From Patescibacteria group bacterium (GTDB lineage Bacteria > Acidobacteriota > Aminicenantia > UBA2199): a stretch of 64,000 nucleotides of DNA. Under the pieces are notes generated by a model. The model saw only the letters and a list, made by a program, of their open reading frames with translations. It ran no database searches and had not been told where the DNA came from. The position numbers and the translations under genes were made by a program. Location: positions 5,840 through 69,839 of the forward strand of contig DATKZA010000035.1 of assembly GCA_035528155.1 (NCBI GenBank). Reading direction: 5' to 3'. Positions 44,270 through 60,600 of this stretch are shown in pieces. The stretch's first letter is position 1; every line of letters starts with the position of its first letter.

Positions 44270-44277
44270 ATTTGTAA

Positions 44278-44305: not shown

Positions 44306-44323
44306 ACCGCCCATCTATATTGC

Positions 44324-45884: not shown

Positions 45885-45927
45885 GAGTGTTCCTCTTTTT
45901 TATTGTTGAAGCACGTTGGCCAAATGG

Positions 45928-46272
45928 CTAACTGCGGCCGAAGTCGTCCTGAAAGCGGGTGATGTCGTCTTCGCCCAGGTAGGTTCCGGTCTGCACTTCG
46001 ATAAAGACCAATTCTTCTTTTCCCGGATTTTCGATGCGGTGCTTTGTTTTTTCTGGAATGAAGACCGACTGTCTTTTTTCCAACTCGAGCGTTTCCTCGC
46101 CCAGGGTAACCCGGGCCTGCCCCTGCACCACCACCCAGTTCTCGGCACGGTGCTCATGGCTTTGCAGGGAGAGCCTTTTGGCGGGTTTGACCATGATGCG
46201 CTTGATCTTCAGTTTCGCCTCTTCGAAAAGGATCTCGAACCAGCCCCAGGGCCGTTCTTCCTTGTCATTCAT
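45928..46272 (-). CDS. cupin-domain protein (mannose-6-phosphate isomerase type II C-terminal cupin-like)
   Basis: The 114-aa C-terminal part of a longer shadow ORF in the track. Its ATG overlaps the gmd stop (ATGA). Cupin His motifs [11 protein letters not shown]...FIP. Confidence 0.55.
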
Positions 46273-49592: not shown

Positions 49593-50039
49593 TCAGAGGT
49601 GGACGAAAACGCCGCCGCTGACGCGGGTCTTGTTAACATCTGAAAAATGGAGAAAGCGCAGGTCGAAACGCAGGGAAAACATGGAGGTGAAAAAAATATG
49701 AAAACCGCCGCCCGCCATGGTATAGAAGCGGTACTCGCTGAAACGGAAATTCAGTTTTTCGAATTCGCCTCCCGTTCCCAGGACTGCGTACGGGGCGAAT
49801 CTACCGAACTTGGGCCGGAGTTTTACGGCGGCGCTCAGGCTGTTCCAACCCGTTTCCTTGATCCGGTAGCCTTCGAACTCGAATTTGAGCAGGGGCACGA
49901 TGGTACCGGAACCGGCCGACAAACCATAGAAAAAACTGGACGGCTTGCTGATGGAACCGGCGATCAATCCGGCATCCAGGGCGAACGCGTTCAGGGCCAG
50001 GAAGAAACAACCGGCCACGACCACTGTTTTTTTAATCAT
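49593..50039 (-). CDS. small outer-membrane beta-barrel protein (OmpW/OmpA-beta-barrel-like), signal peptide
   Basis: Signal peptide, alternating amphipathic strands and a C-terminal aromatic-rich region. Confidence 0.5.
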   Translation of the reverse strand: MIKKTVVVAGCFFLALNAFALDAGLIAGSISKPSSFFYGLSAGSGTIVPLLKFEFEGYRIKETGWNSLSAAVKLRPKFGRFAPYAVLGTGGEFEKLNFRFSEYRFYTMAGGGFHIFFTSMFSLRFDLRFLHFSDVNKTRVSGGVFVHL

Positions 50040-51399
50040 TGTTTTTGCTCACTTTTTGCAGCAGCGGCCTGCCGTAATAATCTATTTCGATTGCCGGCCA
50101 CACTTTGTGAATATAGAGAGAATAATTTTTTTGGAAAAGAGGGAAAATAATCCCGTCGTTGACGATCGCCTCACTGATGCGGGCGATCTGCTCCATCAGC
50201 AGCTCCTGGGAGTTGCTGAATTTGACCTCGTCCAGTTCGCTGAGCATGCGCAGGTACCTGGCGTTGAATTGGTTGAAACTGGACTCCTTCAGGATGCGGC
50301 TGATTTTTTCTTCGGCAGGAACTTTTTTTTGAAAGATCTTGTCGATGAGAAGGTACTGAATGGCAGCCGAATTCAGGAAAGCCATTAACTGGCTGTCATC
50401 GATGAACAGCGTCTCGATCTTGAAGTTGCTGTTTTTTAAATAGGCGGCCAGGTCTTTTTCCAGGTTGGAAAGCGAGGCGAGGATGTAGAGTTTGATCTCG
50501 GAGTGTTTCAGGATGGATGCGGTTTTTTGCGGGGACATGGTCTTGATCTGTATGGAAACCGGCGATTCCTCGTCGCTGGTCAGGGTGCGCAATTCCTTGT
50601 ATTTGTTTCCCGTGGCCTCGTTGAACCTCTTTAAAAGGGTAAAAAGGGCGATCTTGGTGTTCTGGCCCATATCGTTTTGCAGAAAGCACAGGTAGATGTT
50701 CTGGAAAATACCGGAATCGAATTCCCGGAAATTTTCCTTGAATTGGTTCGGGTTGGCCAGGAAGAGGTCGGGCGGTGTGCTTTCGCTGAAAGTGATCTTG
50801 ACCTTGTCCAGGTAGGTCCGGCCTCCGGCATAAAAGGGATTGGCTTTCAGGGTGAGGTGGTGGTTCTTCTCCCATTCATGGGGAAAAAACATGCCTGAAA
50901 ATGACATTTCATTTTCGGCCAGCACCACCAGTTCCGGGGCGGTGAGCAGGCTCAGGATATCAGGGTTGTCGGCCAGCAGCTCAATCCTGACCTGGTTTTC
51001 GTTGACGCGTACGTTTTTGACCGTCTTGCTCAATTTGCTGGCCGCAAAAAGATCGGAATTCATGAATATTTTTAGCGAAACCTGTATGTTCCGGGCCGTC
51101 AGCGGTTTGCCGTTCGAGAAGCTGAGATTGTCCTTGACCGTCAGGCTTAGGGTTTTGCTGCCGGCATCATAGCGGTATTCCTGGAAGACATTGCTGAATA
51201 TTTCACCGTTTTTTTTCAAATAAAAAAAATTATCGTAGATCAGGGAATAGAAGATCAGGTTTGAATAATTGGCGGTGTTCAGGGTGAAGGAGGTCGGCTC
51301 ATTCAGCCGGATTGTGATCTCGCCCCCGTAATAGGGTTTGATGGCGAAAATCAAAGCCAGCGTCAGCGGTATGAGCAGCAGTTTACCTTTGTCCATCGC
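50032..51399 (-). CDS. family-5 solute-binding-protein-like secreted protein (OppA/DppA fold), orphan
   Basis: Signal peptide plus SBP_bac_5-like N-terminal blocks (..LTVKDNLSFSNGKPLTARNIQVSLK..). No ABC permease or ATPase is adjacent. Start taken at the internal ATG (MDKGK). Confidence 0.55.
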   Translation of the reverse strand, partial: AMDKGKLLLIPLTLALIFAIKPYYGGEITIRLNEPTSFTLNTANYSNLIFYSLIYDNFFYLKKNGEIFSNVFQEYRYDAGSKTLSLTVKDNLSFSNGKPLTARNIQVSLKIFMNSDLFAASKLSKTVKNVRVNENQVRIELLADNPDILSLLTAPELVVLAENEMSFSGMFFPHEWEKNHHLTLKANPFYAGGRTYLDKVKITFSESTPPDLFLANPNQFKENFREFDSGIFQNIYLCFLQNDMGQNTKIALFTLLKRFNEATGNKYKELRTLTSDEESPVSIQIKTMSPQKTASILKHSEIKLYILASLSNLEKDLAAYLKNSNFKIETLFIDDSQLMAFLNSAAIQYLLIDKIFQKKVPAEEKISRILKESSFNQFNARYLRMLSELDEVKFSNSQELLMEQIARISEAIVNDGIIFPLFQKNYSLYIHKVWPAIEIDYYGRPLLQKVSKNND

Positions 51400-52735
51400 G
51401 TTTTCCCCAGAACTGGACCATAAACCGCTCCAGGCCGTCCCGTTCTTGCCTGACGCCGGTCCAGAAGCCCCTGATATTTTGCCAGACGCCTGCTGAGATG
51501 AATTGAATTTCACCCGGAATTTTTTCCGAGTATACTAGCCTTTGCCCGCCGTTTTGGATGTCATAAAAAAACAGCTGGTCGGATGTGCGCGTGTAATCGC
51601 TGACGGCCAGCCATGCGCCCCCAAGGGCGGCCAAGGAAGCGCCTTTCTTTTCGGGTAGCGGAAATTGCTCTGCGAATTCCGAGGTGAACAGATGATAATT
51701 ATAGTTGCGGTCGATGAGGTGGACGGCCTGCAGCTGCCCTTCCTGGACGGAGAAATCCAGGGCCAGGGCCGGGGTTGCCTTCTTTTCATAGATGCCCGCT
51801 CTGTCGGCCGGATCGCTGAAAGGCATGAAATAAATTTTGTCCTTGAAATAATTCCTGCCTTCATCATAGCGCGCGCCGACCAGGTACGGGTTCTGGTTTA
51901 AAATCAGGTATTTGCAGGGAACAAAATCGATTTTCTGGATTTCCTGCCACTGGCTGTTGCGGAAGGTCAGGACCTTGGCGTAGGGTGAAAAATTGTTTCC
52001 GGCCGTTAAAACAAGCCCCTGATTCATTTGCAGCAGCAGGAGTTTGCCTTCGTAATGAAGCACCGGATAAATCGGCCTCGTCCATGCCAGTTTGAACTGG
52101 AGATACTTCTCCAAGCGCATGTTGCTAGCCAGGTAAATGACGATCTCATCGGGAAAGTAAAAAAAATATTGGTCACGCCCGTCGCTGCCAGCCAGGGACT
52201 GGATATCCATTAAGTTTTTTTTGCTTTCGAATTCAAGCAATTTTGAAAAACCCAGTTCGGAAAAAGAAAAATTCCTTGTATTCAGGAAATCCATTTCCCC
52301 TTTGCTGAGGGCTTTTTCGAAGTACTTGATAGCGACGATCTTGTCCTGCAGGCGGGAAAAGATGGTCAGCCCGAGACCGGTTTTGCTTTTGTTCTGAATC
52401 AATTTCAGGCCCAGCAGGAAATGAAGATCATCGGCCCGGCCCAGATTAAATTCGCCCCGGCCATTGGAGAAATTGATCAACAGGTCGGCAATGTGGATAT
52501 TCTTTTCGTTTTCCAAACGGGAGATCAGCATTTGATAGATCTTTTGCATGGCCGTGTCGGTCAATTCCGAATCATTTTCGAAGCGGGCGACCGCCACGTT
52601 GACATCGAACCTGTTGATAAAAAATGCTTTCAGAAAAGCGGTGCTTTCCATAACCAGTGCTTCGGCGCTTTGCTGACCAAAGACGTTATTGCCATACAAA
52701 AAAAGCAACAACAGTGAACAGATCACTTTTTTCAT
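51383..52735 (-). CDS. large secreted hypothetical protein (450 aa)
   Basis: Signal peptide MKKVICSLLLLFLYGNNVFGQQ; no recognisable domain. Confidence 0.45.
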   Translation of the reverse strand: MKKVICSLLLLFLYGNNVFGQQSAEALVMESTAFLKAFFINRFDVNVAVARFENDSELTDTAMQKIYQMLISRLENEKNIHIADLLINFSNGRGEFNLGRADDLHFLLGLKLIQNKSKTGLGLTIFSRLQDKIVAIKYFEKALSKGEMDFLNTRNFSFSELGFSKLLEFESKKNLMDIQSLAGSDGRDQYFFYFPDEIVIYLASNMRLEKYLQFKLAWTRPIYPVLHYEGKLLLLQMNQGLVLTAGNNFSPYAKVLTFRNSQWQEIQKIDFVPCKYLILNQNPYLVGARYDEGRNYFKDKIYFMPFSDPADRAGIYEKKATPALALDFSVQEGQLQAVHLIDRNYNYHLFTSEFAEQFPLPEKKGASLAALGGAWLAVSDYTRTSDQLFFYDIQNGGQRLVYSEKIPGEIQFISAGVWQNIRGFWTGVRQERDGLERFMVQFWGKRDGQR

Positions 52736-52745
52736 GCGGCGTGGT

Positions 52746-53801
52746 TCACTTTTTTTTCAAAGTTATCTTCAAGTTGAGATTTATTTTGACGTCGTCGGAA
52801 TCATCGGGGATCTCCAGTGTGATGGGCAGGTCGATACTTTTTCCTATTGGCATGACCAGGAGCGGTCTCTCGCCGGTATCCTCGTCGGTCTTTATCGCGG
52901 CAACCTTGACGGAGTCTGTGTCTTTCTGTTCTTCATCGGTGAAATTGATCTCGGGAATTTCGCTGTCCGATTTGTCACTATTTATTTCCTGGGCATCTTC
53001 CAAATCGAATATGTCTTCATCGCCGGACGCTTTCAGGGAATCCTCGGCGTCTACCATGGGGGAAGACAACTCGAAAACCTCCTCCGCCTCGGTATCGGCA
53101 ACCGGGATTTCCTCGGCCATGTTCTTTAAAACAACATTTTTTTCTTCGGGTTTGGGAGTGGACGAAGTGATTTCTTCCCGGGAAAACATGACGGTCTTGT
53201 CTTTCTGGAAAATGGACAACTGATTTTTCAAGTGCAGGATGACCAGTTTGATGATGGCGTGTAGACCTTCCAGCACATTCTCCCCGTTTGTGGCCACGGT
53301 CGGAAAAAAAGACTTGTTATCCGGGTTCAAATCCTTGTTCAAGGCACTGATGGGCAGGATCTCCTTGAGATCTCTCTTGTTGAATTGAAAGATCAGAGGA
53401 ATTTTTTCGAATTGCAGGTTGTTGAGTTTTAAATTCTTTTTCAAATTGGTGAAGCTTTCGACGTTCTGTTCGCGTAAGATGACCTGGGAATCGGCGACAA
53501 AGACCACACCGTCGGCTCCCTGAAGCACCAGTTTGCGGGTGGTGTCGTAAGCCACCTGTCCGGGAACGGTATAAAGCTGGATCTTCACGGAGTAATTGCC
53601 CAATTTCCCGATCTCCATGGGCAAAAAATCAAAAAACAGGGTGCGGTCGCCGTCGGTATCCAAGGTGATCAGCTTGCCCTTGTTGTCGACTTCGTCACAG
53701 TTGAAAATATAGCGCAGGCAGGTTGTTTTGCCGCTCAACGCCGGCCCGTAATACACGATCTTGGCCGTAATCTCCTTGTTGTTGTAATTGACGAAAGCCA
53801 T
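52746..53801 (-). CDS. MglA-type Ras-like small GTPase with ~150-aa acidic C-terminal extension
   Basis: Residues 1-195 match Myxococcus MglA (recalled from memory) block by block: AKIVYYGPALSGKTT (P-loop), DRTLFFDFLP (switch I with the intrinsic Arg), YTVPGQ (switch II) and FNKRD (G4). The C-terminal tail is D/E-rich and low-complexity. The ATG overlaps the ssb stop. Confidence 0.8.
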   Translation of the reverse strand: MAFVNYNNKEITAKIVYYGPALSGKTTCLRYIFNCDEVDNKGKLITLDTDGDRTLFFDFLPMEIGKLGNYSVKIQLYTVPGQVAYDTTRKLVLQGADGVVFVADSQVILREQNVESFTNLKKNLKLNNLQFEKIPLIFQFNKRDLKEILPISALNKDLNPDNKSFFPTVATNGENVLEGLHAIIKLVILHLKNQLSIFQKDKTVMFSREEITSSTPKPEEKNVVLKNMAEEIPVADTEAEEVFELSSPMVDAEDSLKASGDEDIFDLEDAQEINSDKSDSEIPEINFTDEEQKDTDSVKVAAIKTDEDTGERPLLVMPIGKSIDLPITLEIPDDSDDVKINLNLKITLKKK

Positions 53802-54292
53802 TAAAATGGATCCTCTTCACAGGCGGGGTCTTCCCTCGCGCTTTCAAACGGGGGAGTGCTTTGGCTGTTCGCTTCCGGGAAAGAATCCCTGTGGAATTTG
53901 TCTCCGGGATAGGAGGATCCCGAACCCTGTCCGGCCGAGTCCTTACGACGGTCCAGGACAATCACGTTGTCGGCCTGGATATCAGTGTTCCACCTGTCCT
54001 GGCCGTTCTTGTCCTGCCACTTGCGGGTGCGGATGCTGCCTTCGACCAGGACCATGTCGCCCTTACCCAGGCTTTTTTCGACTTTCTGGGCCAGCGGTCC
54101 CCAGGCGACGATGTTGTGCCACTCTGTCGGCAAATCTTTCCAGGCATTGTTGTTCTTGTCAAAATACCCTTCGTTGGTGGCCAGGCTGAATTTGGCCAGT
54201 TGCCGGCCGCTGCTTGCCACAACGGTGATCTCGGGATCCTTTCCCATACGGCCAACCAGGATAACACGGTTCAAACTACGGACTTGGCTCAT
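53801..54292 (-). CDS. ssb: single-stranded DNA-binding protein
   Basis: OB-fold N-terminus (RVILVGRMGKDPEI...WHNIVAWG) and a Gly/Ser-rich acidic tail. Confidence 0.85.
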   Translation of the reverse strand: MSQVRSLNRVILVGRMGKDPEITVVASSGRQLAKFSLATNEGYFDKNNNAWKDLPTEWHNIVAWGPLAQKVEKSLGKGDMVLVEGSIRTRKWQDKNGQDRWNTDIQADNVIVLDRRKDSAGQGSGSSYPGDKFHRDSFPEANSQSTPPFESAREDPACEEDPF

Positions 54293-54293
54293 G

Positions 54294-55052
54294 TTATTCG
54301 CTGAACTCCTTGATTTTTTGTCCGGCCAGCGAGGCTTCTTCGGACAAGGGGAAGCGGGAGATCAATTCCTTCAAAATGGCGATGCCTTCGCTTTGCCGAC
54401 CCATTTCGATCAGGGCATAGCCCTTTTTGAGAATCGCGGCGGCAGCCTTGTCGCCGTCCCTGTATTTTGCCAGCAGTTCATTGAATGTATTGATGGCGTC
54501 CTGGTATTTTTTTTTGGCGTAAAAACATTCACCGATCCAATACAGGGAATTGTCGGCCAGGCCGCTTTCCGGGAACCTGAGGATAAATTGCCTGAATCCT
54601 TCAATGGCCAGGTCGAAATTTTCCTTGATGTAATCGGAATAGGCCGCGTAATAGATGCTGGAAGGATCCTGGGTCAGAGAGGTCTCGTCGGGTGTGGTGG
54701 AAGTGGCCGTCCCTGCCGGCAAGGTTCCCACCGGGAACTTTTCTATTTTGTCGTCCAGTTTGTTCAGGGAATTTTTCAGATCGTTCAATTCTTCCTTGAA
54801 AAACTGCATGCTGAGCATGAAATTTTCTTTGCTTTGTGTTAAATCGGCCTGGTTCCTGGCAATGGCACTGATTTTTTCATCGCTGATGCCTGATTTTTTA
54901 AGCAGTTCTGTGACCTGGGCGGAAAGTTTGGCGATAGATTCGGAAAGTTTCTGCATTTCGTCCAGGATGATCTGGGTGTCCTTTTTTACCGCCCGGAGCG
55001 GCAAATTGAGTAACAACAGCACCATCAGTGCCGGAATGAACTTTGGCTTCAT
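54294..55052 (-). CDS. ybgF: Tol-Pal system protein YbgF/CpoB (coiled-coil + TPR)
   Basis: Signal peptide, an N-terminal coiled-coil and C-terminal TPR repeats; lies directly downstream of pal. Confidence 0.65.
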   Translation of the reverse strand: MKPKFIPALMVLLLLNLPLRAVKKDTQIILDEMQKLSESIAKLSAQVTELLKKSGISDEKISAIARNQADLTQSKENFMLSMQFFKEELNDLKNSLNKLDDKIEKFPVGTLPAGTATSTTPDETSLTQDPSSIYYAAYSDYIKENFDLAIEGFRQFILRFPESGLADNSLYWIGECFYAKKKYQDAINTFNELLAKYRDGDKAAAAILKKGYALIEMGRQSEGIAILKELISRFPLSEEASLAGQKIKEFSE

Positions 55053-55057: not shown

Positions 55058-55594
55058 CTATTTTTTGGTGATGACAAACTCGGCGCGGCGGTTCTGAAAG
55101 TAGGAATCTTCGTCCTCGCCCTGAACCAGCGGCTTGTTTTTGCCGTAGGAGATGATCTTGATCTTGGCGGCATTCATGCCCAGGGAGACCAGGTAATTTT
55201 TAGCGGCTTCGGCTCTTTTTTCGCCCAGGGCGATGTTGTATTCAATGGTGCCCCTTTCGTCGCAATGGCCCTCGATCAAGACTTCCACGCTGGCGAACTT
55301 AAGCAGCCAGTTGGCGTTGGCCTGAATAATGGCCTTCATGTCTTCCCGGATCGTGTATTTGTCGAAGTCGAAGTTGATCCTTTTTAGTATCTGATCCTTG
55401 TTTAGTTCTTCCAGGGATTTCTGCTGGAAGATCTCTTCCTCGCTCAGCACGGGTTTTTCGACCTGGGGGGTTGGTTCTTCCACTTTTTCCACCACGGGCT
55501 CTTGAACGGGCGCGACCTTAGCGGCTTTTTTACCGCAGGCATTAAACATCAGGATTAGTGACAGTGCTAACAAAATCAACAGACATTTTTTCAT
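55058..55594 (-). CDS. pal: peptidoglycan-associated lipoprotein Pal
   Basis: Lipobox (LMFNAC) and a C-terminal OmpA-like domain (..IEGHCDERGTIEYNIALGEKRA..). Confidence 0.85.
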   Translation of the reverse strand: MKKCLLILLALSLILMFNACGKKAAKVAPVQEPVVEKVEEPTPQVEKPVLSEEEIFQQKSLEELNKDQILKRINFDFDKYTIREDMKAIIQANANWLLKFASVEVLIEGHCDERGTIEYNIALGEKRAEAAKNYLVSLGMNAAKIKIISYGKNKPLVQGEDEDSYFQNRRAEFVITKK

Positions 55595-55665
55595 GGATCC
55601 TCCTTTTATTATTTATACTAAAAATATAATATATAAGAAATATTTTGTCAAATGTATCGGGGGCT

Positions 55666-56967
55666 TTATTTGGGTGATTTCGGCGATTTCTGCCATTTCG
55701 GCATTTTGTTCTCGCCGCTGGCCGTGATCTGCCGGACATTACGGCCATCGTAATCGACCAGGTACAGCTGATACTTGCCGCTGCGGTTCGAGGAAAAGAC
55801 CAGGTGCCGGCCGTCTGGCGACCAGGAGGGATTTTCGTTGCGGCCGGCGTTTTCGGTCAATTTGCTGATCTCGTTGCTTTTCAGGTTGAAGACGTAAATA
55901 TCGAAGCGGTTCTCGATGCGTGAAACAAAAGCCAGGCGCATGCCGTCGGGCGACCAGGCGGCCGAATCGTGGTAGGAACCTTCGGTGGTGATGCGGCGGA
56001 TGTTGCTGCCTTCGGCATCCATGATGTAGATCTGCGGTGTGCCGTTGCGTTGGGAAGTGAAGGCGACCTCGCGTCCGTTGGGACTCCAGCAGGGCGATGT
56101 GTCGATGGCCGGGTTGAAGGTCAGCCGCTTTTCCTGGCCGCTTTTCATGTTTTTCAGATAAATTTCGGCATTGCCGTTCTTGGAAGACGTGTATACGATC
56201 TGCTCGGCAGTGGGAGACCAGTCGGCCGCGTAATTGCTGCCTCCGCTTGACAGCAATTCCGTTTTCCCGGCATAGATGTCAAACATGAACAGGTCGGGAT
56301 TGAGGTTACGGTACGACGTGTATAGGATTTTTTCATTGTCGGCGCTCCAGGAAGGCAGCATGTCGATGGCGCTGCTGAAGGTGATGCGGATCGGGCGGAA
56401 ACCGTCGTAGTCCATGATGTAAATATCCTTGTCCCTGCCTGTTTCGGATACATAAACGATCTTCGATGTAAAAAGCGGTTTTTCACCGAAATGCTTCAGC
56501 ATCTCGTCGGCGGCGCGGTGGGCGATCAGGCGGCTCAGTTCCTTTTTGCCGCCGAAATTCCTACCGAAGATGAACCTGGCGCTTGCTACTTCATACACTT
56601 TAAATGAAAAAATGATGCGTTCGTCGGCTGTGATTTCCAACTGGCCGGAAATGAGGATATTGGCCTGGATTGAGGCCCAATCCTTGAAATTGATGGCGTT
56701 GTGATTGAAGCGGGGAATATAGGAATAATGCTCGCGCGGCACCATTTTGAAGATGCGGGAAAACTCAAGGTCTTTCCATATGGTCTCGTAGATCGTACTT
56801 TTTACTTCGCTTTTTTGCGCCGCTGCTTCGCTGAACTGGAATTCCGGCATGGCCACCGGGATCATGGGCAACCCTTCCTTGATGCGGATGGTGATCTCCT
56901 CCTGGCCGCGCAGTTGCCAGCTCAACAAGCAGATGAAAAGAAACAGGACTATTTTTTGTATTTTCAT
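55666..56967 (-). CDS. tolB: Tol-Pal periplasmic beta-propeller protein TolB
   Basis: Repeated PxWSPDG propeller motifs. Start taken at MKIQK with a GGAG RBS. The start codon (ATG) overlaps the tolA-like stop. Confidence 0.85.
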   Translation of the reverse strand: MKIQKIVLFLFICLLSWQLRGQEEITIRIKEGLPMIPVAMPEFQFSEAAAQKSEVKSTIYETIWKDLEFSRIFKMVPREHYSYIPRFNHNAINFKDWASIQANILISGQLEITADERIIFSFKVYEVASARFIFGRNFGGKKELSRLIAHRAADEMLKHFGEKPLFTSKIVYVSETGRDKDIYIMDYDGFRPIRITFSSAIDMLPSWSADNEKILYTSYRNLNPDLFMFDIYAGKTELLSSGGSNYAADWSPTAEQIVYTSSKNGNAEIYLKNMKSGQEKRLTFNPAIDTSPCWSPNGREVAFTSQRNGTPQIYIMDAEGSNIRRITTEGSYHDSAAWSPDGMRLAFVSRIENRFDIYVFNLKSNEISKLTENAGRNENPSWSPDGRHLVFSSNRSGKYQLYLVDYDGRNVRQITASGENKMPKWQKSPKSPK

Positions 56968-57749
56968 TATTTCTCCCATTCGAATTCAAAATGAACGACC
57001 AGGTATTGCGAGGAAAAATCATTGGGCAGGGGAGCGAAGGGTGCGGCGTTTTCGATGGCCCTCCGGGCTGATAGATCAAGGGAACTGACGCCGCTCGGGC
57101 GTTCCAGCCGCAGGTCGCTGATTTCACCGTTGCGGCGGATGATGAAATAGACGCCGGTGATGTGTTTGCCTTTCAGCCCCGGAGCGACCAGTGAACTGTA
57201 CCATGAAGAAGATATGCGGTTGCGTAAAAGGTCAATGTAATATGCATGCGGGAAATAACCTCCGGGGCCGCCCGGGCCGCTGCCCCAGCCATTGCCATCG
57301 CCGCTGCCGCCTCCACCGCCGGAAATTCCGGTTTTCAGCCCTTCGCTTGTGACGTTACCCTGGATCGGAGTTTCGCTTTTGGCGATGGTCCTTTCCTTGC
57401 GGACAACCGAGATCATTTTGTCATCTTCAACCGTTTTTTTGCTCTCTTTATCGGGAAAGCGCAGAGGAGATTGAAATTTCTTTTCCACCGTCAGGTTCTT
57501 GACGCCGCCGCCCTTTTCCTCGATCAAAGCGGCCTGGGTCGGGGCTTCCTGTTTGAGCGTACCGGCTGCCTTGCCGCTGCCGCCTCCACCGCCTTTGCCG
57601 CTGCCCCCCCCGCCGCCTCCGCCGAGTTGGACCAGGTCAACGTAGTAGGTCATTTCACCGCTGTTTTTCCGCGCCGGGGGAATCATGAATAGCACGGCCA
57701 GGGAGATGTGGAGTATGACTGAAAGCAACAGTGTGGACTTGAATTTCAT
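56967..57749 (-). CDS. tolA: TolA/TonB-like energy-transducing protein (N-terminal TM, Gly-rich linkers, TonB_C-like C-terminal domain)
   Basis: Its position between tolR and tolB, a single N-terminal TM, and a C-terminal domain with the YP..A.....G.V motif pattern. Confidence 0.6.
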   Translation of the reverse strand: MKFKSTLLLSVILHISLAVLFMIPPARKNSGEMTYYVDLVQLGGGGGGGSGKGGGGGSGKAAGTLKQEAPTQAALIEEKGGGVKNLTVEKKFQSPLRFPDKESKKTVEDDKMISVVRKERTIAKSETPIQGNVTSEGLKTGISGGGGGSGDGNGWGSGPGGPGGYFPHAYYIDLLRNRISSSWYSSLVAPGLKGKHITGVYFIIRRNGEISDLRLERPSGVSSLDLSARRAIENAAPFAPLPNDFSSQYLVVHFEFEWEK

Positions 57750-58159
57750 TGCCGCGACTTCTGCTCCACGATCATGCCAACCGTGTCCACGCCGGCGAGC
57801 TTGATGATGTCCATCACTTCGATAACGTATCCATAAGAGAGATTTTTGTCTGCCTTGAGAAAAACGATTTTCTTGTCAATGTTCAAAAAATGGCTTTTCA
57901 GGCGGGATTCCAGAAAATACAGGTTTACGATCTGCTCATTCATGTATATATAGCGGTCCTTGGTCAGGGTCAGGACCAGGCCGCCCGAACTCGGGTTGGT
58001 GCGGGTTTCGGCCGACGGCAGTTTGACCGTGATCCCGGTCTGCATCATCGGGGCCGTGACCATGAAAATGATCAGCAGCACCAGCATGACGTCGACCAGC
58101 GGCGTGATGTTGATCTCGGCCAGGTTGCTGTGCAATTGATGTCGGGATTGGACTTTCAT
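57746..58159 (-). CDS. tolR: ExbD/TolR biopolymer transport protein
   Basis: INITPLVDVMLVLLIIFMVTAP, the canonical ExbD/TolR TM with the conserved Asp. Confidence 0.85.
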   Translation of the reverse strand: MKVQSRHQLHSNLAEINITPLVDVMLVLLIIFMVTAPMMQTGITVKLPSAETRTNPSSGGLVLTLTKDRYIYMNEQIVNLYFLESRLKSHFLNIDKKIVFLKADKNLSYGYVIEVMDIIKLAGVDTVGMIVEQKSRQ

Positions 58160-58851
58160 CAGTTTAGTTTTTCGCTTAAGTTCAGGAATTCAAGGATGAA
58201 ATCTTCCATTATGGCAATGAGCACTTTGAGTTTGTTCAGCAGCAGGTTGTAGAAGATGACCGCGGGAATGGCGGCGAACAATCCCAGGGCGGTAGCGATC
58301 AGGGCTTCGGCTATGCCGGGGGCGACAGTGGCCAGGTTGGCGTTCATTTGGATACCGATCTGCTGGAAGGAATTCATGATCCCCCAGACCGTTCCAAACA
58401 AGCCGATGAACGGAGCGGCCGAGGCGCAGGTGGCCAGGAAACCGTTCAGTCGTTCAAAACGGGTGATCTCCTGGTTGGAGGCCCGAAGCAGTGCCCGGTG
58501 CAGACTGTCCAGGTCGAGTTTTTCCAGTTTTTGCCCGCTTCCGGTCTGTTGGGCGATCTCCCGGTAACCGAAACGGAATATCTCGCCCAGGGGATTGTTG
58601 CCGTATAATGATTTGGCATTGTTGATCTCGCTGAAGTTCTTGTTTTTCTTGAAAAAATTCAGGAATTTGAAACTGTTTTTTCTGGCCCGCGAATATTCCA
58701 TGAGCTTGAAAATGATGATCGCCCAGGAAATAATGGAAAACGCCAGCAGCAGCAGCAAGACCAGTTTGACCACTAAGGACGCGTTCTGGATCAGGTAGAT
58801 GAAATCGCCATTGTGGTTGCCGGGATTGATCGTGAAGAGTATGTGTTTCAT
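58159..58851 (-). CDS. tolQ: MotA/TolQ/ExbB proton-channel protein
   Basis: The C-terminal 231 aa of an 845-aa track ORF; the rest of that ORF is an antisense shadow of the carboxyltransferase gene. TolQ motifs ...FIGLFGTVWGIM...ALIATALGL. Confidence 0.85.
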   Translation of the reverse strand: MKHILFTINPGNHNGDFIYLIQNASLVVKLVLLLLLAFSIISWAIIIFKLMEYSRARKNSFKFLNFFKKNKNFSEINNAKSLYGNNPLGEIFRFGYREIAQQTGSGQKLEKLDLDSLHRALLRASNQEITRFERLNGFLATCASAAPFIGLFGTVWGIMNSFQQIGIQMNANLATVAPGIAEALIATALGLFAAIPAVIFYNLLLNKLKVLIAIMEDFILEFLNLSEKLN

Positions 58852-59046
58852 TGCTTTATTTTTACCATAATTCCCAGCCATTTTCAACCCTGAGGGGGTT
58901 TTGTTTGGCCCGGGCAGGGAGTTTTCAGTGGCCTTGTTGTATATGGCACCGTTTTTCAGGCCCAGGGCCGCTTTTTTGCTTGGCTGGAGGGCGGAATTTG
59001 ATTTTTTTGCGGAATGATTATACAATTCAGCCTGCAGGTGAAACAA

Positions 59047-60591
59047 ATGAAAACAAAAATAAAGGAATTGATAAAGCTGCGCGAAGAAAGAGACGCTGCC
59101 GGCGGGTTGGAGAAACTGGCCCAGCGCCGGGCCCGCGGCTTGATGACCGCCAGAGACCGCATCGAGTATTTGTTCGATCCCAATACCTTTGTCGAGTTGC
59201 AGGGATATGTGGTTCACCATTCGGGCAATTTCGGCCTGGAAAAGAAAAAATTCCTCGGCGACGGCGTGATCACCGGTTTCGGCAAGATCAACGATCAGGT
59301 CGTCTATGTTTATTCCCAGGATTTCACCGTTCTCGGCGGCTCGCTGGGAGAAATGCATGCCCGAAAGATCGTCAACATCATGGACCTGGCCCTGAAGGCC
59401 GGGGCGCCGGTCATCGGCATCAATGACTCGGGCGGCGCCCGCATCCAGGAAGGGATCAACAGCCTGGCCGGTTACGGCGATATTTTTTTCCGCAATACCA
59501 TTTCTTCGGGCGTCATCCCCCAGATCTCGGTGATCATGGGGCCCTGCGCCGGCGGCGCCGTGTATTCCCCGGGGATCACCGACTTCGTCTTCATGGTCGA
59601 CAAATCCAGCTACATGTTCGTCACCGGTCCGGAAGTCATCAAGGCGGTGAACAAGGAAGAGGTGACGTTCGAGGAACTCGGCGGCGCCCAAAGCCATGCC
59701 TCCATTTCCGGCGTGGCCCATTTTGTCGGCCACGATGAAAAAGACACCCTGGACATGGTCAAGGAGCTGCTCAGTTACCTGCCGTCTTCGAATATGGAAC
59801 AGGTGGCGGATGCCGACAGCGGCGATCCCTTCGATCGCATGGACGACAAGCTGAACGAGATCGTTCCGGTCAACCCCAACAAGCCTTACGACGTGAAGGA
59901 ATTGATCATGCTGGTGGTCGACCAGCAGAAATTCCTTGAAGTCCACAAAAGCTACGCCCAGAACCTTGTGGTCGGCTTTGCCCGCCTGGGCGGCAAGTCG
60001 GTCGGCATCATCGCCAACAATCCCGGAATTTTCGCCGGTACGCTCGACGTGCAGGCCTCGCTGAAGGGGGCGCGCTTCATCCGTTTTTGCGACGCCTTCA
60101 ACATCCCGCTGGTCAGTTTCGTCGATGTCCCCGGATTTTTGCCGGGCCGCGACCAGGAGCAGCTGGGCATCATCAAGCACGGCGCCAAGATGCTTTACGC
60201 CTATTCCGAAGCCACGGTTCCCAAGCTGACGGTGATCACGCGCAAGGCCTACGGGGGCGCCTACATCGTGATGAGTTCCAAGCACCTGGGTGCCGACGTG
60301 GTCTGCGCCTGGCCGACGGCCGAGATCGCGGTCATGGGGCCGCAGGGAGCCATCAACATTATTTTCAAAAAGGATATCTCCGAAGCCGTGGAGCCGGAAA
60401 CGGTCCGTGAACGGCTGATCTCCGAATACAAGGAAAAATTCGCCAATCCCAAGGAGCCGGCGGCCTACGGCTACGTGGACGAGATCATTTTGCCCGTGGA
60501 GACCCGTCCCTTCCTGATTAAAAACCTGGAAGCCCTGGCCGGCAAATCGCAAAAATTGCCCTTGAAAAAACACGGCAACATCCCCCTCTAA
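59047..60591 (+). CDS. acyl-CoA carboxylase carboxyltransferase subunit (propionyl-CoA carboxylase beta / methylmalonyl-CoA decarboxylase alpha family)
   Basis: Full-length carboxyltransferase N and C domains (..SGGARIQEG.., ..VITRKAYGGAYIVM..). Start at an ATG preceded by AGGTGA. Confidence 0.85.
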   Translation: MKTKIKELIKLREERDAAGGLEKLAQRRARGLMTARDRIEYLFDPNTFVELQGYVVHHSGNFGLEKKKFLGDGVITGFGKINDQVVYVYSQDFTVLGGSLGEMHARKIVNIMDLALKAGAPVIGINDSGGARIQEGINSLAGYGDIFFRNTISSGVIPQISVIMGPCAGGAVYSPGITDFVFMVDKSSYMFVTGPEVIKAVNKEEVTFEELGGAQSHASISGVAHFVGHDEKDTLDMVKELLSYLPSSNMEQVADADSGDPFDRMDDKLNEIVPVNPNKPYDVKELIMLVVDQQKFLEVHKSYAQNLVVGFARLGGKSVGIIANNPGIFAGTLDVQASLKGARFIRFCDAFNIPLVSFVDVPGFLPGRDQEQLGIIKHGAKMLYAYSEATVPKLTVITRKAYGGAYIVMSSKHLGADVVCAWPTAEIAVMGPQGAINIIFKKDISEAVEPETVRERLISEYKEKFANPKEPAAYGYVDEIILPVETRPFLIKNLEALAGKSQKLPLKKHGNIPL

Positions 60592-60600
60592 GGTGAGGTC

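What the first reader, a model, noticed from the sequence alone, without database searches (positions are those of the whole stretch)
52746..53801. MglA-type small GTPase with a ~150-aa acidic disordered C-terminal tail and no MglB partner
The first ~195 residues match MglA, the Myxococcus polarity/gliding-motility GTPase, almost block for block. This includes the MglA-specific switch-I Arg-Thr (DRTLFFDF) and TVPGQ in place of the Ras DTAGQ. The protein then continues for about 155 residues of Asp/Glu-rich low-complexity sequence (..DAEDSLKASGDEDIFDLEDAQEINSDKSDSEIPEINFTDEEQKD..). No Roadblock/LC7 (MglB-type) GAP gene is adjacent. Its start codon overlaps the ssb stop. The genes after it encode a secreted 450-aa protein, an orphan SBP-like protein and a small beta-barrel. 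MglA homologs outside the myxobacteria are poorly characterised, and an acidic-tail fusion suggests a distinct regulatory mode or partner.
Basis: partly seen in the sequence, partly recalled or inferred. Interest (0 to 1): 0.6.

Follow-up and report, generated by a model that had tools for sequence, protein, structure and literature searches.

The report
Long-tailed MglA GTPase in Tol-Pal operon
This gene encodes a Ras-like MglA polarity switch with a conserved 157-residue acidic tail ending in a small amphipathic module; it always sits inside a Tol-Pal cell-envelope operon in Aminicenantes bacteria and belongs to a large, unstudied class of long MglA proteins that nearly always lack the usual MglB partner gene next door.

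Summary
ORF 52746..53801(-) encodes 351 aa. Residues 1-194 are a Group-1 MglA G domain (PDB MglA E=3e-58; model TM 0.93) with R53-T54, TVPGQ and NKRD. The Ras-G12-equivalent P-loop glycine is an invariant alanine (A21).

The tail is acidic and mostly predicted disordered, but it is not featureless:
- It is under purifying selection (dN/dS 0.09-0.26).
- It has a near-invariant segment at 195-213.
- It has two conserved [DE][DE]ΦFxL motifs.
- It has a conserved, confidently modelled 29-aa C-terminal amphipathic module ending in KKK.

The protein occurs in 66 species-level Aminicenantes genomes. There the order is always pal-cpoB-ssb-mglA*-(450-aa secreted protein), usually followed by an SBP-like gene and a small OMP gene and preceded by tolQRAB.

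It belongs to a much larger class: at least 140 clusters at 50% identity combine an MglA domain, a long acidic linker and a C-terminal amphipathic strand or MinD-like helix. The reference survey excluded proteins over 240 aa.

In a metagenome sample, 23/25 short MglA genes had an upstream Roadblock gene, against 2/39 long ones (p=6e-13). One Aminicenantes sublineage does carry a V4R-Roadblock pair five genes downstream, so genome-wide absence of MglB is unproven.

Verdict: a new variant of a known kind. The function is inferred, not shown.

The parts
52746..53801 (-). mglA* : 351-aa long-form MglA-family GTPase (whole ORF including the stop codon)
   Evidence: ORF list. Matches PDB MglA at E=3e-58. 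More than 115 full-length homologue clusters. Found in 66 GTDB species genomes.
53220..53801 (-). G domain, residues 1-194 (Group-1 MglA type)
   Evidence: Gap-free alignment to MxMglA. AF2 pLDDT above 90. Foldseek TM 0.93-0.94 to 6izw_A/6h17. dN/dS 0.02-0.06.
53724..53747 (-). P-loop GPALSGKT (residues 19-26). A21, codon 53739-53741, replaces the Ras-G12-equivalent glycine.
   Evidence: A21 is invariant in 114 clusters and in all 61 sequences of the species-level alignment. Other long forms mostly have G21: 108 of 119.
53640..53645 (-). Switch-I R53-T54 (intrinsic arginine finger plus G2 threonine)
   Evidence: Invariant in all alignments. This is the Group-1 signature according to PMC4316618.
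53556..53570 (-). G3 motif TVPGQ (residues 78-82, catalytic Q82)
   Evidence: Invariant.
53370..53381 (-). G4 motif NKRD (residues 141-144)
   Evidence: Invariant.
53163..53219 (-). Near-invariant post-G-domain segment LSIFQKDKTVMFSREEITS (residues 195-213). Its start continues helix alpha5.
   Evidence: As conserved as the G-domain core across the species-level alignment. AF2 models a helix over 176-203.
52842..53162 (-). Acidic, predicted-disordered linker (residues 214-320)
   Evidence: AF2 pLDDT below 50 for most of it and about 50-70 for the rest. dN/dS 0.14-0.44. Length and sequence vary between species.
53058..53084 (-). Conserved linear motif 1, EEVFELSSP (residues 240-248)
   Evidence: In the 61-sequence species-level alignment: position 243 always hydrophobic or aromatic (F in 49), E244 58/61, L245 60/61, P248 53/61.
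52995..53021 (-). Conserved linear motif 2, DEDIFDLED (residues 261-269; family consensus DDIFNLED)
   Evidence: I/V/L264 61/61, F265 61/61, L267 60/61. It resembles the MglB Ct-helix DDDIDNLF, but a shuffle test was not significant.
52749..52835 (-). C-terminal module IDLPITLEIPDDSDDVKINLNLKITLKKK (residues 323-351): two amphipathic strand-like stretches plus a basic end
   Evidence: P326 is invariant and the alternating hydrophobic positions are conserved. AF2 pLDDT 80-84. dN/dS 0.06-0.19. A family HMM finds it at the C terminus of distant long forms.
53801..54292 (-). ssb (163 aa, C-terminal tip EEDPF). Its stop overlaps the mglA* start by 1 nt.
   Evidence: Pfam SSB 3e-31 and TIGR00621. 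Directly upstream of mglA* in every related locus that has upstream flank. The gap is 5 nt or less in 48 of 57 loci where both gene ends were found.
54294..55052 (-). cpoB/ybgF-like TPR protein (252 aa)
   Evidence: Pfam TPR_6 and YfiO. Synteny.
55058..55594 (-). pal (OmpA-family lipoprotein, 178 aa). A sigma70-like promoter match lies upstream at 55651-55623.
   Evidence: Pfam OmpA 7e-19. Promoter match 11 of 12.
55666..58851 (-). tolB (55666-56979), tolA/TonB_C (56967-57749), tolR/ExbD (57746-58159), tolQ/MotA_ExbB (58159-58851)
   Evidence: Pfam. Precomputed Pfam in L001, L003 and L004. Synteny.
51383..52735 (-). Conserved 450-aa secreted protein of unknown family, starting 10 nt after mglA*
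   Evidence: No Pfam or PDB match, even with a 31-sequence profile. Follows mglA* in every Aminicenantes-type locus held that has downstream flank.
50032..51396 (-). SBP_bac_5-like periplasmic protein (about 454 aa from the ATG at 51396)
   Evidence: Pfam SBP_bac_5 1e-14, partial match. Present in L001, L003, L005 and L078.
49593..50039 (-). 148-aa outer-membrane beta-barrel-like protein, the last gene of the cluster
   Evidence: Weak OMP_b-brl and TIGR04565 hits, both below cutoff. Conserved in most loci.

Best explanation
What is shown. mglA* encodes a Group-1 MglA-family molecular switch built as three parts.
1. A complete G domain with the intrinsic arginine finger (R53), catalytic Q82, TVPGQ and NKRD. 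The P-loop has a fixed Gly21-to-Ala change.
2. An invariant continuation of helix alpha5, followed by an acidic, mostly disordered linker of about 110 aa that carries two conserved [DE][DE]-hydrophobic-F-x-L motifs.
3. A conserved 29-aa C-terminal module of two amphipathic strand-like stretches ending in KKK.

It is the Aminicenantia representative of a large, undescribed class of long MglA proteins. Their C termini are amphipathic strands, MinD-like basic/aromatic amphipathic helices or, in one case, a transmembrane segment. Their genes are almost never preceded by mglB.

What is inferred.
- The C-terminal module is a localisation or tethering element. It would hold the switch at the inner membrane or on a membrane complex, with the acidic linker as a flexible leash. 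This would be the bacterial counterpart of the hypervariable region plus anchor of eukaryotic Ras/Rho/Rab, or of the amphipathic helices of Arf and ArcoA.
- A21 (compare MglA G21V, Bdellovibrio S21, Ras G12 substitutions) would make hydrolysis slow, so the protein would be mostly GTP-bound. Regulation would then come from the tail, not from an adjacent MglB GAP.
- The gene is translationally coupled inside pal-cpoB-ssb-mglA*-secreted protein, usually followed by SBP-like and OMP genes, and usually directly downstream of tolQRAB. Its most likely job is therefore to position or switch this Tol-Pal-linked envelope and division module from the cytoplasmic side. This would parallel MglA-GTP engaging the Tol-like Agl-Glt machine through GltJ in Myxococcus.
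For: Identity. Group-1 signature residues: read against PMC4316618.

The tail is real and constrained:
- 100% coverage in more than 115 clusters and in 66 species genomes.
- dN/dS 0.09-0.26.
- Conserved islands.

The C-terminal module:
- pLDDT 80-84, against below 50 for most of the linker.
- A family HMM finds it at the C terminus of distant long forms.

Class-level architecture:
- Nearly all of the top 150 representatives from 1.84 billion proteins are 280-800 aa.
- An alternating-hydrophobic strand lies in the last 30 aa in 59/142 representatives (4.9 expected) and in 26/43 metagenome long forms (1.1 expected).
- Basic-aromatic ends occur in a further 44/142 and 8/43.
- Examples resembling the MinD tail: KKKGLLSRLFGGG, KKRGFFSRLFGG.

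MglB uncoupling:
- 23/25 short against 2/39 long forms have an upstream Roadblock gene, Fisher p=5.6e-13.
- Pfam on 120 nearest-neighbour ORFs of long forms found Robl_LC7 in only 3.
- None is adjacent in the contexts.

A21:
- Invariant.
- Literature: G21V lowers kcat 7-fold (PMC3000849). Bdellovibrio has S21 and no MglB, and 5 of 9 MglB-less species have A/S21 (PMC3983030).

Operon:
- Identical gene order on one strand in essentially all 66 loci.
- 1-nt overlap or a gap of 5 nt or less with ssb in 48/57 loci.
- The order persists at 52% identity.

Precedents:
- MglA-GTP binds the linker of the TonB/TolA-like GltJ (PMC11135422).
- A membrane-binding Ras-superfamily GTPase positions division in archaea (bioRxiv 10.64898/2026.07.23.738820).
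Against: - No experiment exists, and no model coordinates were available. Where the C-terminal module sits, and whether it binds membrane, are unknown. DSSP assigned no strands to it despite the high pLDDT.
- In this protein the module has net charge about zero and an acidic turn (DDSDD), which is atypical for a membrane-binding element.
- TolA and TolR here have almost no cytoplasmic N-terminal segment to bind, so any Tol partner would have to be TolQ or something unidentified.
- Conserved synteny within one class can reflect shared ancestry and not function. More distant long forms are not in tol-pal operons, although one lies 4 kb from a divergently oriented tol-pal cluster.
- A21 coexists with a nearby Roadblock gene in L066 and L078. 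A21 therefore does not guarantee independence from MglB.
- Alanine at this position is a milder change than valine, and its kinetic effect in MglA is untested.
Confidence: 0.45

Rival explanations
1. Ordinary MglA/MglB cycle with a decorated MglA. A Roadblock GAP, and perhaps RomR/RomX, is encoded elsewhere in the genome. The protein would control polarity or type IV pili as in Myxococcus or Thermus. The tail would only add lineage-specific localisation, and the operon position would be incidental.
For: - The surface and catalytic residues used with MglB (R53, Q82, the FFDF beta2 strand) are fully conserved.
- A bona fide Robl_LC7 gene (PF03259, E=1e-12) lies five genes downstream in the L066 and L078 sublineage.
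- A V4R-Roadblock pair also occurs unlinked to any GTPase gene in a contig from the same metagenome (L079). Roadblock genes could therefore be hidden elsewhere.
- Three long forms do have an adjacent Roadblock gene.
Against: - No Roadblock was found in the 64-kb window or within 10 kb in about 64 other species loci.
- The L066 Roadblock has only two clusters in 5.8 billion proteins by word-index search, whereas mglA* is conserved class-wide.
- Short MglA genes almost always keep mglB immediately upstream, and long ones do not.
- A21 is fixed.
Confidence: 0.22
2. Self-regulation in cis. The conserved acidic amphipathic motifs of the tail (EEVFELSSP, DEDIFDLED) would fold back into the allosteric pocket of the G domain (beta2-beta3 loop plus helix alpha5). 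In Myxococcus this pocket binds the acidic C-terminal helix of MglB and promotes nucleotide exchange. The tail would thus replace the MglB or RomR acidic helix, making the protein self-loading or autoinhibited.
For: - Baranwal et al. (PMC6785124): the MglB helix EISDDDIDNLF contacts L64, I67, K181 and K185. A RomR Glu-rich helix can substitute for it. Basic alpha5 residues co-occur with acidic MglB tails.
- Here I64, L67 and K/R185 are conserved, and position 181 is His in 50/61.
- Among other long forms with acidic tails, K/R occupies 181 in 72/119 and 185 in 94/119.
- The family consensus DDDIFNLE resembles DDDIDNLF.
- Family-specific hydrophobic residues I184 and L/I/M189 on alpha5 suggest a covered surface.
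- The AF2 G domain aligns best with the GTP-state beta2 register.
Against: - The similarity to the MglB helix is not significant in this sequence: 1283 of 3000 shuffles scored as well.
- AF2 did not dock the motifs. pLDDT is below 50 for motif 1 and only about 50-70 for motif 2.
- The motif is not enriched in other long forms: 4/139 against 1.5 expected.
- No control set of short MglA without acidic partners was analysed.
Confidence: 0.15
3. The C-terminal hairpin-like module is a dimerisation or oligomerisation element. Two amphipathic hairpins would form a small sheet. The GTPase would then be activated by dimerisation and need neither GAP nor GEF.
For: - The module has one fully hydrophobic face: I327/L329/I331 plus I340/L342/L344/I346/L348.
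- It has no net positive charge.
- Long forms lack MglB.
- High pLDDT without intramolecular strands in a monomer model fits a segment waiting for a partner.
Against: - No multimer prediction was possible.
- Sister long forms end in MinD-like helices or a transmembrane segment. This points to membrane targeting as the shared role of the C terminus.
Confidence: 0.1
4. SSB-linked function. Tight translational coupling to ssb would mean that the GTPase works with SSB. For example, the acidic tail could mimic ssDNA or the acidic SSB tip and bind the OB fold.
For: - ssb is directly upstream in every related locus with upstream flank. The overlap is 1 nt in 24 loci, and the gap is 5 nt or less in 48 of 57.
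- The tail motifs (acidic run plus I-F/L) loosely recall the SSB tip, which here is EEDPF.
Against: - SSB-tip recognition needs a free C-terminal Phe carboxylate (established knowledge), and the motifs are internal.
- ssb may simply be the housekeeping copy that sits in this operon.
- More distant long forms are not next to ssb.
Confidence: 0.05
5. The tail is non-functional low-complexity sequence or an annotation artefact such as read-through or a fused ORF.
For: Acidic composition, low AF2 confidence over most of 203-318, and no Pfam match.
Against: - A continuous ORF of conserved length in more than 115 clusters and 66 species.
- dN/dS well below 1 in every tail segment.
- Invariant residues F265, L267, L245 and P326.
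- Shorter database entries are frameshifted or truncated copies.
Confidence: 0.02

Closest known systems
Myxococcus xanthus / Thermus thermophilus MglA (Group-1 MglA; PDB 5YMX, 6IZW, 6H17, 3T12)
   Same: - G domain about 50% identical in the structural alignment, with a gap-free sequence alignment over 193 residues.
- Intrinsic Arg finger R53, T54, TVPGQ, Q82 and NKRD.
- The predicted fold matches with TM 0.93.
- The hydrophobic and basic residues of the allosteric pocket are largely kept.
   Different: - 351 aa instead of about 195 aa, because of the 157-aa conserved tail.
- A21 instead of G21.
- No mglB immediately upstream.
- Embedded in a tol-pal-cpoB-ssb operon and not in an mglBA operon.
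- The organism is an uncultured Aminicenantes bacterium with no known gliding or reversal system.
Bdellovibrio bacteriovorus MglA (orphan, S21)
   Same: Natural non-glycine residue at position 21 and no adjacent mglB. Proposed to be permanently GTP-bound (PMC3983030).
   Different: The Bdellovibrio protein is a short single-domain MglA (own knowledge). It acts with RomR and a TPR protein at one pole for pilus-dependent prey invasion. It has no acidic tail and no Tol-Pal linkage.
SofG (M. xanthus orphan MglA paralogue, 239 aa)
   Same: An orphan Group-1 MglA with an extension beyond the G domain. It is used for positioning other proteins, not as part of an MglB cycle (PMC4316618).
   Different: The SofG extension is short and N-terminal, and it works with bactofilins (own knowledge). 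It has no long acidic C-terminal tail or C-terminal amphipathic module.
Eukaryotic Ras/Rho/Rab hypervariable region with polybasic or lipid anchor; Arf and archaeal ArcoA amphipathic helices
   Same: Works-like analogy: a small GTPase joined by a flexible, poorly conserved linker to a terminal membrane-targeting element. ArcoA shows that a prokaryotic Ras-superfamily GTPase can use such an element to position cell division.
   Different: No lipidation signal. The element is C-terminal and strand-like here, or a MinD-like helix in sister long forms. The linker is strongly acidic. Homology of the tails is not implied. Membrane binding is untested.
MglB C-terminal helix / RomR Glu-rich helix acting on the MglA allosteric pocket
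   Same: Acidic amphipathic segments with conserved I/F/L residues, and a conserved K185 with hydrophobic positions 64 and 67 on the G domain.
   Different: Here the acidic motifs are in the same polypeptide. The sequence similarity is not statistically supported, and no docking was predicted.
MglA-GTP / GltJ / Agl-Glt (Tol-like gliding machinery) of Myxococcus
   Same: An MglA-family switch functionally linked to a TolQR/TolA-type envelope machine (PMC11135422). Here the link is genomic, through a shared operon.
   Different: The cluster here is a canonical Tol-Pal set (TolQRAB, Pal, CpoB) with no Glt-specific proteins, no GltJ-like ZnR-GYF cytoplasmic domain and no AglZ. A physical link is not shown.

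Membership tests
MglA family, Group 1 (Wuichet & Sogaard-Andersen 2015) | Ras-like G domain with G1 GxxxxGK[ST] and G4 [NT]KxD | tested here: met
   GPALSGKT (19-26) and NKRD (141-144), invariant. PDB MglA E=3e-58.
MglA family, Group 1 (Wuichet & Sogaard-Andersen 2015) | Intrinsic arginine finger adjacent to the G2 threonine | tested here: met
   R53-T54 in DRTLFFDF. Invariant in the family and in 119 other long forms. Criterion taken from PMC4316618.
MglA family, Group 1 (Wuichet & Sogaard-Andersen 2015) | G3 motif TVPGQ instead of DxxGQ | tested here: met
   TVPGQ at 78-82, invariant.
MglA family, Group 1 (Wuichet & Sogaard-Andersen 2015) | MglA three-dimensional fold | tested here: met
   AF2 G domain pLDDT above 90. 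Foldseek top 14 hits are all MglA, TM 0.87-0.94 normalised to the target, rmsd 1.5-2.5 A.
MglA family, Group 1 (Wuichet & Sogaard-Andersen 2015) | Single-domain small protein (150-240 aa, the cut-off used to define the family set) | tested here: not met
   351 aa. Homologues are 346-369 aa and up to about 436 aa in species loci. The survey excluded sequences over 240 aa.
MglA family, Group 1 (Wuichet & Sogaard-Andersen 2015) | Coupled to a Roadblock/LC7 MglB gene within four genes (true of most but not all members) | tested here: not met
   No Robl_LC7 in the 64-kb window or in about 64 of 66 related loci. In L066 and L078 a Roadblock gene lies five genes downstream.
Canonical MglA/MglB GTPase cycle | A cognate MglB GAP somewhere in the genome | not testable with these tools
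   Only 10 kb of flank can be fetched around a gene, and no whole-genome scan of the Aminicenantes MAGs was possible. Indirect attempts were inconclusive.
Canonical MglA/MglB GTPase cycle | Glycine at position 21 (Ras G12 equivalent), which permits GAP-assisted hydrolysis | tested here: not met
   A21 in 61/61 sequences of the species-level alignment and in all database clusters except one chimeric contig.
Canonical MglA/MglB GTPase cycle | RomR/RomX, MglC and Frz partners | not tested
   No such genes are among the window ORFs annotated. About ten window ORFs were not scanned (for example 37290-42579 and 44919-46980). Genome-wide presence is unknown.
Membrane-anchored small GTPases (works-like class: Ras HVR, Arf, ArcoA, MinD-type MTS) | Terminal amphipathic or basic element that binds membrane | tested here: inconclusive
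   A conserved amphipathic C-terminal module ending in KKK is present. Sister long forms carry MinD-like ends or a TM helix. The module here has no net positive charge, and binding cannot be tested in silico with these tools.
Tol-Pal system accessory component | Conserved co-orientation and tight spacing with tolQRAB-pal-cpoB | tested here: met
   Same strand and order in essentially all 66 species loci and at 52% identity. Gaps in the window are 71 nt or less from tolQ to the OMP gene.
Tol-Pal system accessory component | Physical or functional interaction with Tol-Pal proteins | not testable with these tools
   No complex prediction or experiment was available.

The most novel reading that the evidence does not exclude
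Long-form MglA proteins may be a widespread class of self-contained, MglB-independent bacterial Ras-like switches that has been overlooked. In this reading, a built-in acidic tail supplies in cis the exchange-promoting acidic helix that MglB or RomR supply in trans. A C-terminal amphipathic module then anchors the switch at the membrane. In Aminicenantia the switch would be hard-wired into the Tol-Pal/CpoB operon to position outer-membrane constriction or an associated secreted-protein module. That would be an ancestral MglA-Tol partnership, from which the myxobacterial MglA/Agl-Glt control of gliding was later elaborated.
Probability: 0.12. Interest if true: 0.85.

Novelty: new variant of a known kind. 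Interest (0 to 1): 0.62.

Why it matters
MglA is the model bacterial Ras-like polarity switch, yet almost everything known about it comes from short, cytosolic, MglB-coupled proteins in Myxococcus, Thermus and Bdellovibrio. The only systematic survey discarded everything longer than 240 aa (PMC4316618). A 2026 preprint still contrasts membrane-binding archaeal ArcoA with 'cytosolic' bacterial MglA.

The data here show three things:
- A large set of MglA-family proteins carries long acidic tails that end in amphipathic strands or MinD-like helices.
- These long forms have, as a rule, lost the adjacent MglB gene.
- In one whole bacterial class the gene is fixed inside the Tol-Pal/CpoB operon.

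If the inferred tethering and self-regulation hold, this gives a bacterial counterpart of the linker-plus-anchor design of eukaryotic small GTPases. It also gives a candidate cytoplasmic regulator of Tol-Pal, and a concrete system for asking how MglA became coupled to Tol-like motors.

The protein is small and soluble-looking, and its motifs are sharply defined. The biochemical tests (A21G, tail deletions, liposome binding, peptide effects on exchange) are therefore straightforward even though the host is uncultured.

Tried and rejected
- **AF2 with a family-only alignment** (114 sequences at 62% identity or more) gave an unusable model, mean pLDDT 41. It was repeated with a diverse alignment. 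No coordinates or PAE are returned, so the position of the C-terminal module could not be read.
- **MglB Ct-helix mimicry.** The best ungapped BLOSUM match of EISDDDIDNLF in the tail scored no better than 43% of shuffles. It is kept only as a low-confidence rival.
- **Tail motif as a class feature.** The [DE][DE]-hydrophobic-F-x-L motif is not enriched in other long forms (4/139 against 1.5 expected). It is family-specific.
- **Pfam on the tail and on the C-terminal 46 aa:** no hit even at E up to 10.
- **The 450-aa downstream protein.** There was no Pfam match beyond one E=0.08 hit far below cutoff. There was no PDB match with the single sequence or with a 31-sequence profile. hhalign against TolB gave 50% probability over the N-terminal 70 residues, which include the signal peptide, so this is inconclusive.
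- **Tracing MglB in Aminicenantes.**
  - The L066 Roadblock protein recovered only 2 clusters.
  - The adjacent V4R protein is widespread (Aquificae, Polyangiaceae) and none of its contigs matches the mglA* contigs by length.
  - L079 shows an unlinked V4R-Roadblock-response regulator cluster of uncertain taxonomy. Its LOG protein is only 47% identical to the window's.
- **The listing of cluster members** gave no taxonomy for the distant long forms.
- **The afdb50 fold library** was unavailable.
- **Promoter and terminator scan** showed no convincing internal terminator, only a promoter-like site before pal.
- **Literature searches** for long or membrane-targeted MglA, or for MglA in Aminicenantes, found nothing. 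The library is incomplete, so this is absence of evidence only.


Full report
**1. The observation**

The ORF at 52746..53801 on the minus strand encodes 351 aa. Its first 193 residues align without a gap to M. xanthus MglA (5ymx/6h17/6hjh, E about 3e-58) and to T. thermophilus MglA (3t12, E=3e-50). The next best PDB hits are Rab and Arf proteins at E above 1e-5. Pfam sees only weak Arf and Ras matches, and NCBIfam only the generic small-GTPase domain.

- GPALSGKT (19-26)
- DRTLFFDF with R53-T54
- TVPGQ (78-82)
- NKRD (141-144)

By the criteria of the reference survey (an arginine next to the G2 threonine, and a TVPGQ G3 motif), this is a Group-1 MglA (PMC4316618).

An AlphaFold2 model built on a diverse alignment gives pLDDT above 90 for residues 1-200. 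Its 14 best Foldseek matches in the PDB are all MglA, with TM 0.87-0.94. The GTP-gamma-S states rank first.

The remaining details of the finding also hold:
- The tail (195-351) has 41 Asp/Glu against 18 Lys/Arg.
- The start codon shares one base with the ssb stop (TAATG).
- The genes that follow encode a 450-aa protein with a signal peptide and no family match, an SBP_bac_5-like protein and a small OMP-barrel-like protein.

**2.

The P-loop glycine equivalent to Ras G12 and MglA G21 is alanine. This is fixed in every full-length homologue examined, namely 119 of 120 database clusters and all 61 sequences of the species-level alignment. The single exception is a chimeric 1.5-kb contig.

The literature gives three relevant points:
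- MglA G21V lowers kcat about 7-fold (PMC3000849).
- Bdellovibrio MglA naturally has S21 and no MglB.
- Of nine MglB-less species surveyed, five had A or S at position 21 (PMC3983030).

**3. The tail is constrained, not just low complexity**

The database of 5.8 billion proteins holds more than 115 clusters of full-length homologues. They are 346-369 aa long, cover 100% of the query and are 62-100% identical. Shorter entries are frameshifted or truncated copies. A scan of one genome per species found the gene in 66 GTDB species genomes. Almost all are labelled Aminicenantes, Aminicenantia or Acidobacteriota, and identity ranges from 47 to 94% (most 53% or more).

Against ten of these, dN/dS was as follows:

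| Segment | dN/dS |
|---|---|
| G domain | 0.02-0.06 |
| Whole tail | 0.09-0.26 |
| Linker 214-320 | 0.14-0.44 |
| Last 31 residues | 0.06-0.19 |

The species-level alignment shows four conserved islands:
- **Island 1.** Residues 195-213 (LSIFQKDKTVMFSREEITS) are as conserved as the G-domain core. AF2 models their start as a continuation of helix alpha5.
- **Island 2.** EEVFELSSP at 240-248: E244 58/61, L245 60/61, P248 53/61.
- **Island 3.** DEDIFDLED at 261-269: F265 61/61, L267 60/61, I/V/L264 61/61.
- **Island 4.** The C-terminal module P-I-x-L-x-I-P ... I-x-L-N-L-x-I-x-x-K-K-K at 323-351. P326 is invariant and the alternating hydrophobic positions are strictly kept.

AF2 gives pLDDT below 50 for most of 203-318 and at most about 70 for the rest. 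It gives 80-84 for 321-350, although DSSP assigns that segment no regular secondary structure. No coordinates are returned, so I cannot say what the module packs against. No Pfam model matches the tail.

**4. Genomic context**

On the minus strand the window reads as follows:

| Gene | Coordinates |
|---|---|
| tolQ | 58159-58851 |
| tolR | 57746-58159 |
| tolA/TonB_C | 56967-57749 |
| tolB | 55666-56979 |
| pal | 55058-55594 |
| cpoB-like TPR | 54294-55052 |
| ssb | 53801-54292 |
| mglA* | 52746-53801 |
| 450-aa secreted protein | 51383-52735 |
| SBP5-like | 50032-51396 |
| OMP | 49593-50039 |

No gap exceeds 71 nt. The only sizeable gap, between tolB and pal, holds an 11-of-12 sigma70-like promoter match.

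The same order and orientation recur in essentially every one of the 66 species loci that has flanking sequence. They also recur in more distant relatives at 52-64% identity. In one of these the block starts at pal (L005).

The ssb-mglA* junction is a 1-nt overlap in 24 loci and a gap of 5 nt or less in 48 of the 57 loci where both ends were found. The next gene most often starts 10 nt after the mglA* stop.

The rest of the window is housekeeping: mnmG, ftsK, holA, leuS, etfAB and acyl-CoA carboxylase subunits. There are no motility or polarity genes.

**5. MglB**

No Roadblock/LC7 protein was found in the window. Pfam was run on 20 small ORFs, and phmmer on the six-frame translation with MxMglB and with an Aminicenantes Roadblock. 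My recalled MxMglB sequence was verified as 100% identical to 6h5b_B.

Across 1.18 Mb of related loci a single hit appeared. In L066 a V4R-domain gene and a genuine Robl_LC7 gene (PF03259, E=1e-12) follow the OMP gene on the same strand. The same arrangement occurs in a second metagenome contig, L078, whose MglA* still has A21 and the tail motifs.

That Roadblock protein has only two clusters in the database by word-index search. Its V4R neighbour is widespread across phyla. A V4R-Roadblock pair also occurs on its own in another contig of uncertain origin.

'No MglB adjacent' is therefore correct for this window and for about 64 of 66 species. Absence from the genome is not established, and it is not testable with the tools I had.

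**6. A much larger class**

A full HMMER scan of 1.84 billion cluster representatives gave 1,844 hits below 1e-30. Nearly all of the best 150 are 280-800 aa: an MglA G domain (R53, T54, TVPGQ invariant) followed by a long tail with about 21% Asp/Glu. The ranking favours acidic tails, so this is not a frequency estimate.

Their C termini fall into recurring kinds:
- Strand-like alternating hydrophobic ends, like the one here. These occur in 59 of 142, against 4.9 expected from random 30-aa windows of the same tails.
- Basic-aromatic amphipathic ends, such as KKSWFRF, KKKKFWLLFS, KKKGLLSRLFGGG and KKRGFFSRLFGG. These occur in a further 44 of 142. The last two closely resemble the membrane-targeting tail of E. 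coli MinD (own knowledge).
- A third recurrent beta-rich end, ...KKVTLILDVKK, in 10 of the 142. Its VTLILDV stretch also fits the alternating-hydrophobic pattern, so these are already among the 59.
- One hydrophobic transmembrane-like tail (P0198).

An independent sample came from the best 80 of at least 598 MglA loci in JGI metagenomes. It held 43 complete long forms and about 28 short ones.

| Form (600 nt or more of upstream sequence) | Roadblock gene immediately upstream |
|---|---|
| Short | 23 of 25 |
| Long | 2 of 39 |

Fisher's exact test gives p=5.6e-13. Pfam on the 120 nearest-neighbour ORFs of the long forms found Robl_LC7 in only three.

None of the distant long-form contexts I inspected has one either. 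A21 is not a general feature of long forms (10 of 119).

The reference survey explicitly removed sequences longer than 240 aa. Its own table implies 39 long members of the MglA clade, of which only 14 were MglB-coupled (PMC4316618). I found no paper describing long or membrane-targeted MglA, or MglA in Aminicenantes. A 2026 preprint on the archaeal ArcoA division oscillator still describes bacterial MglA as cytosolic.

**7. How it most likely works**

*Shown:*
- A complete Group-1 catalytic apparatus with A21.
- A constrained tail with defined motifs and a terminal amphipathic module.
- Class-wide fixation inside a Tol-Pal/CpoB/SSB operon.
- A strong statistical link between long tails and the absence of an adjacent mglB.

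*Inferred (overall confidence about 0.45):*
- The C-terminal module tethers the switch to the membrane or to a membrane complex, and the acidic linker acts as a leash.
- A21 slows hydrolysis, so control is exerted through the tail and not through an adjacent GAP.
- The target is the Tol-Pal-linked envelope module encoded around it.

The third step has a precedent. MglA-GTP binds the cytoplasmic linker of the TonB/TolA-like GltJ in the Tol-derived gliding machine (PMC11135422).

*Weak points:*
- The module here has no net positive charge and has an acidic turn.
- TolA and TolR have almost no cytoplasmic segment.
- Synteny within one class may be inherited and not functional.
- A21 coexists with a nearby Roadblock gene in one sublineage.

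**8. Rivals**

- **Canonical cycle (0.22).** MglB is encoded elsewhere.
- **Cis-acting mimicry (0.15).** The tail would mimic the acidic MglB or RomR helix that binds the beta2-beta3/alpha5 pocket and promotes exchange (PMC6785124).
  - *For:* pocket residues I64, L67 and K185 are conserved. K/R at 181 and 185 is common in long forms. Alpha5 carries family-specific hydrophobic residues I184 and L189.
  - *Against:* the sequence resemblance fails a shuffle test, AF2 does not dock the motifs, and the motif is family-specific.
- **Dimerisation (0.10).** The C-terminal module would pair two copies.
- **SSB-linked role (0.05).**
- **Non-functional tail (0.02).** This is refuted by conservation and dN/dS.

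**9. Verdict**

This is a genuine, well-conserved feature and a new variant of a known kind. The G domain is a member of the MglA family by every sequence and fold criterion. The protein fails the family's working definition on length, on MglB coupling and on G21. It represents an architecture (G domain, acidic linker, terminal amphipathic module) that appears common in metagenomes and unstudied.

Interest is moderately high (0.62). Three results would surprise specialists and are directly testable: the class-level architecture, its anticorrelation with MglB, and the fixed Tol-Pal linkage. The function remains inferred.

Noticed in passing
window 51383-52735 (-); L011-L076 downstream of mglA*: A 450-aa secreted protein follows mglA* in every Aminicenantes-type locus held that has downstream flank. 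It has no Pfam or PDB match, even with a 31-sequence profile. The only similarity is a weak one to the TolB N terminus (hhalign probability 50%), which is uninformative because it includes the signal peptide.
   Followed up: partly
L066:6553-7468 and L078:9470-10378: In one Aminicenantes sublineage a V4R-domain gene and a Roadblock/LC7 gene (128 aa, no acidic C-terminal extension) sit directly after the OMP gene of the cluster, followed by a transglutaminase-like gene. The V4R protein is 55-65% identical to proteins of Aquificae and Polyangiaceae, which suggests a mobile V4R-Roadblock module.
   Followed up: partly
L079:10001-12154: A V4R-Roadblock pair followed by a 297-aa response regulator with an acidic, coiled C-terminal half. 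No GTPase gene is nearby. The contig is of uncertain taxonomy, from the same metagenome as L078.
   Followed up: no
window 58159-60696 (-): The 845-aa ORF listed here is an artefact. Only its last 230 codons (58159-58851) are TolQ. The rest is a shadow frame over a carboxyltransferase-like gene on the plus strand (59014-60591). That gene is followed by a 495-aa ORF (60601-62088, not scanned) and a biotin-carboxyl-carrier gene (62097-62612).
   Followed up: partly
window 55623-55651 (-): The best sigma70-like promoter match of the region (TTGACA-17-TATATT, 11 of 12) lies in the 71-nt tolB-pal gap. This fits a pal-to-OMP sub-operon. In L005 the conserved block indeed begins at pal without tolQRAB.
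   Followed up: no
window 53801-54292 (-) and SSB genes of L011-L076: The SSB proteins of this lineage end in ...DPF (EEDPF, DDPF) and not in the classical IPF tip. ssb sits between cpoB and mglA* in an envelope operon, an unusual place for a replication gene.
   Followed up: partly
P0147, P0153, P0176, P0198 and others; L083-L088, L109: Many long MglA proteins from other lineages end in MinD-like membrane-targeting sequences (KKKGLLSRLFGGG, KKGLFRRLFGK) or in KKSWFRF-type ends. One ends in a transmembrane-like helix. L109 combines such an end with an adjacent Roadblock gene.
   Followed up: partly
window 30913-33027 (+): A Yip1-domain membrane protein (eukaryotic Yip1 proteins are Rab-GTPase partners) is followed by a 423-aa OmpA-family protein. 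It lies 20 kb from mglA*, so it is probably unrelated.
   Followed up: no
window 43721-44842 (+): A second, divergent ExbD/TolR-like gene (182 aa) is next to an ORF with a weak IS200-type Y1 transposase match.
   Followed up: no
P0106 and P0116; L015 and L032: Database oddities. P0106 is a chimeric contig joining a different MglA N terminus to this family's tail. P0116 is an SSB-MglA* fusion created by a frameshift. One MAG (MFD05942.bin.2.108) holds two copies at 87% and 71% identity. The second is riddled with frameshifts, so this is probably bin contamination or assembly error.
   Followed up: no
L006: A distant A21-type long form (P0137, 47% identical) is not in a tol-pal operon, but it lies about 4 kb from a divergently oriented tolQRAB-pal-cpoB cluster.
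   Followed up: no
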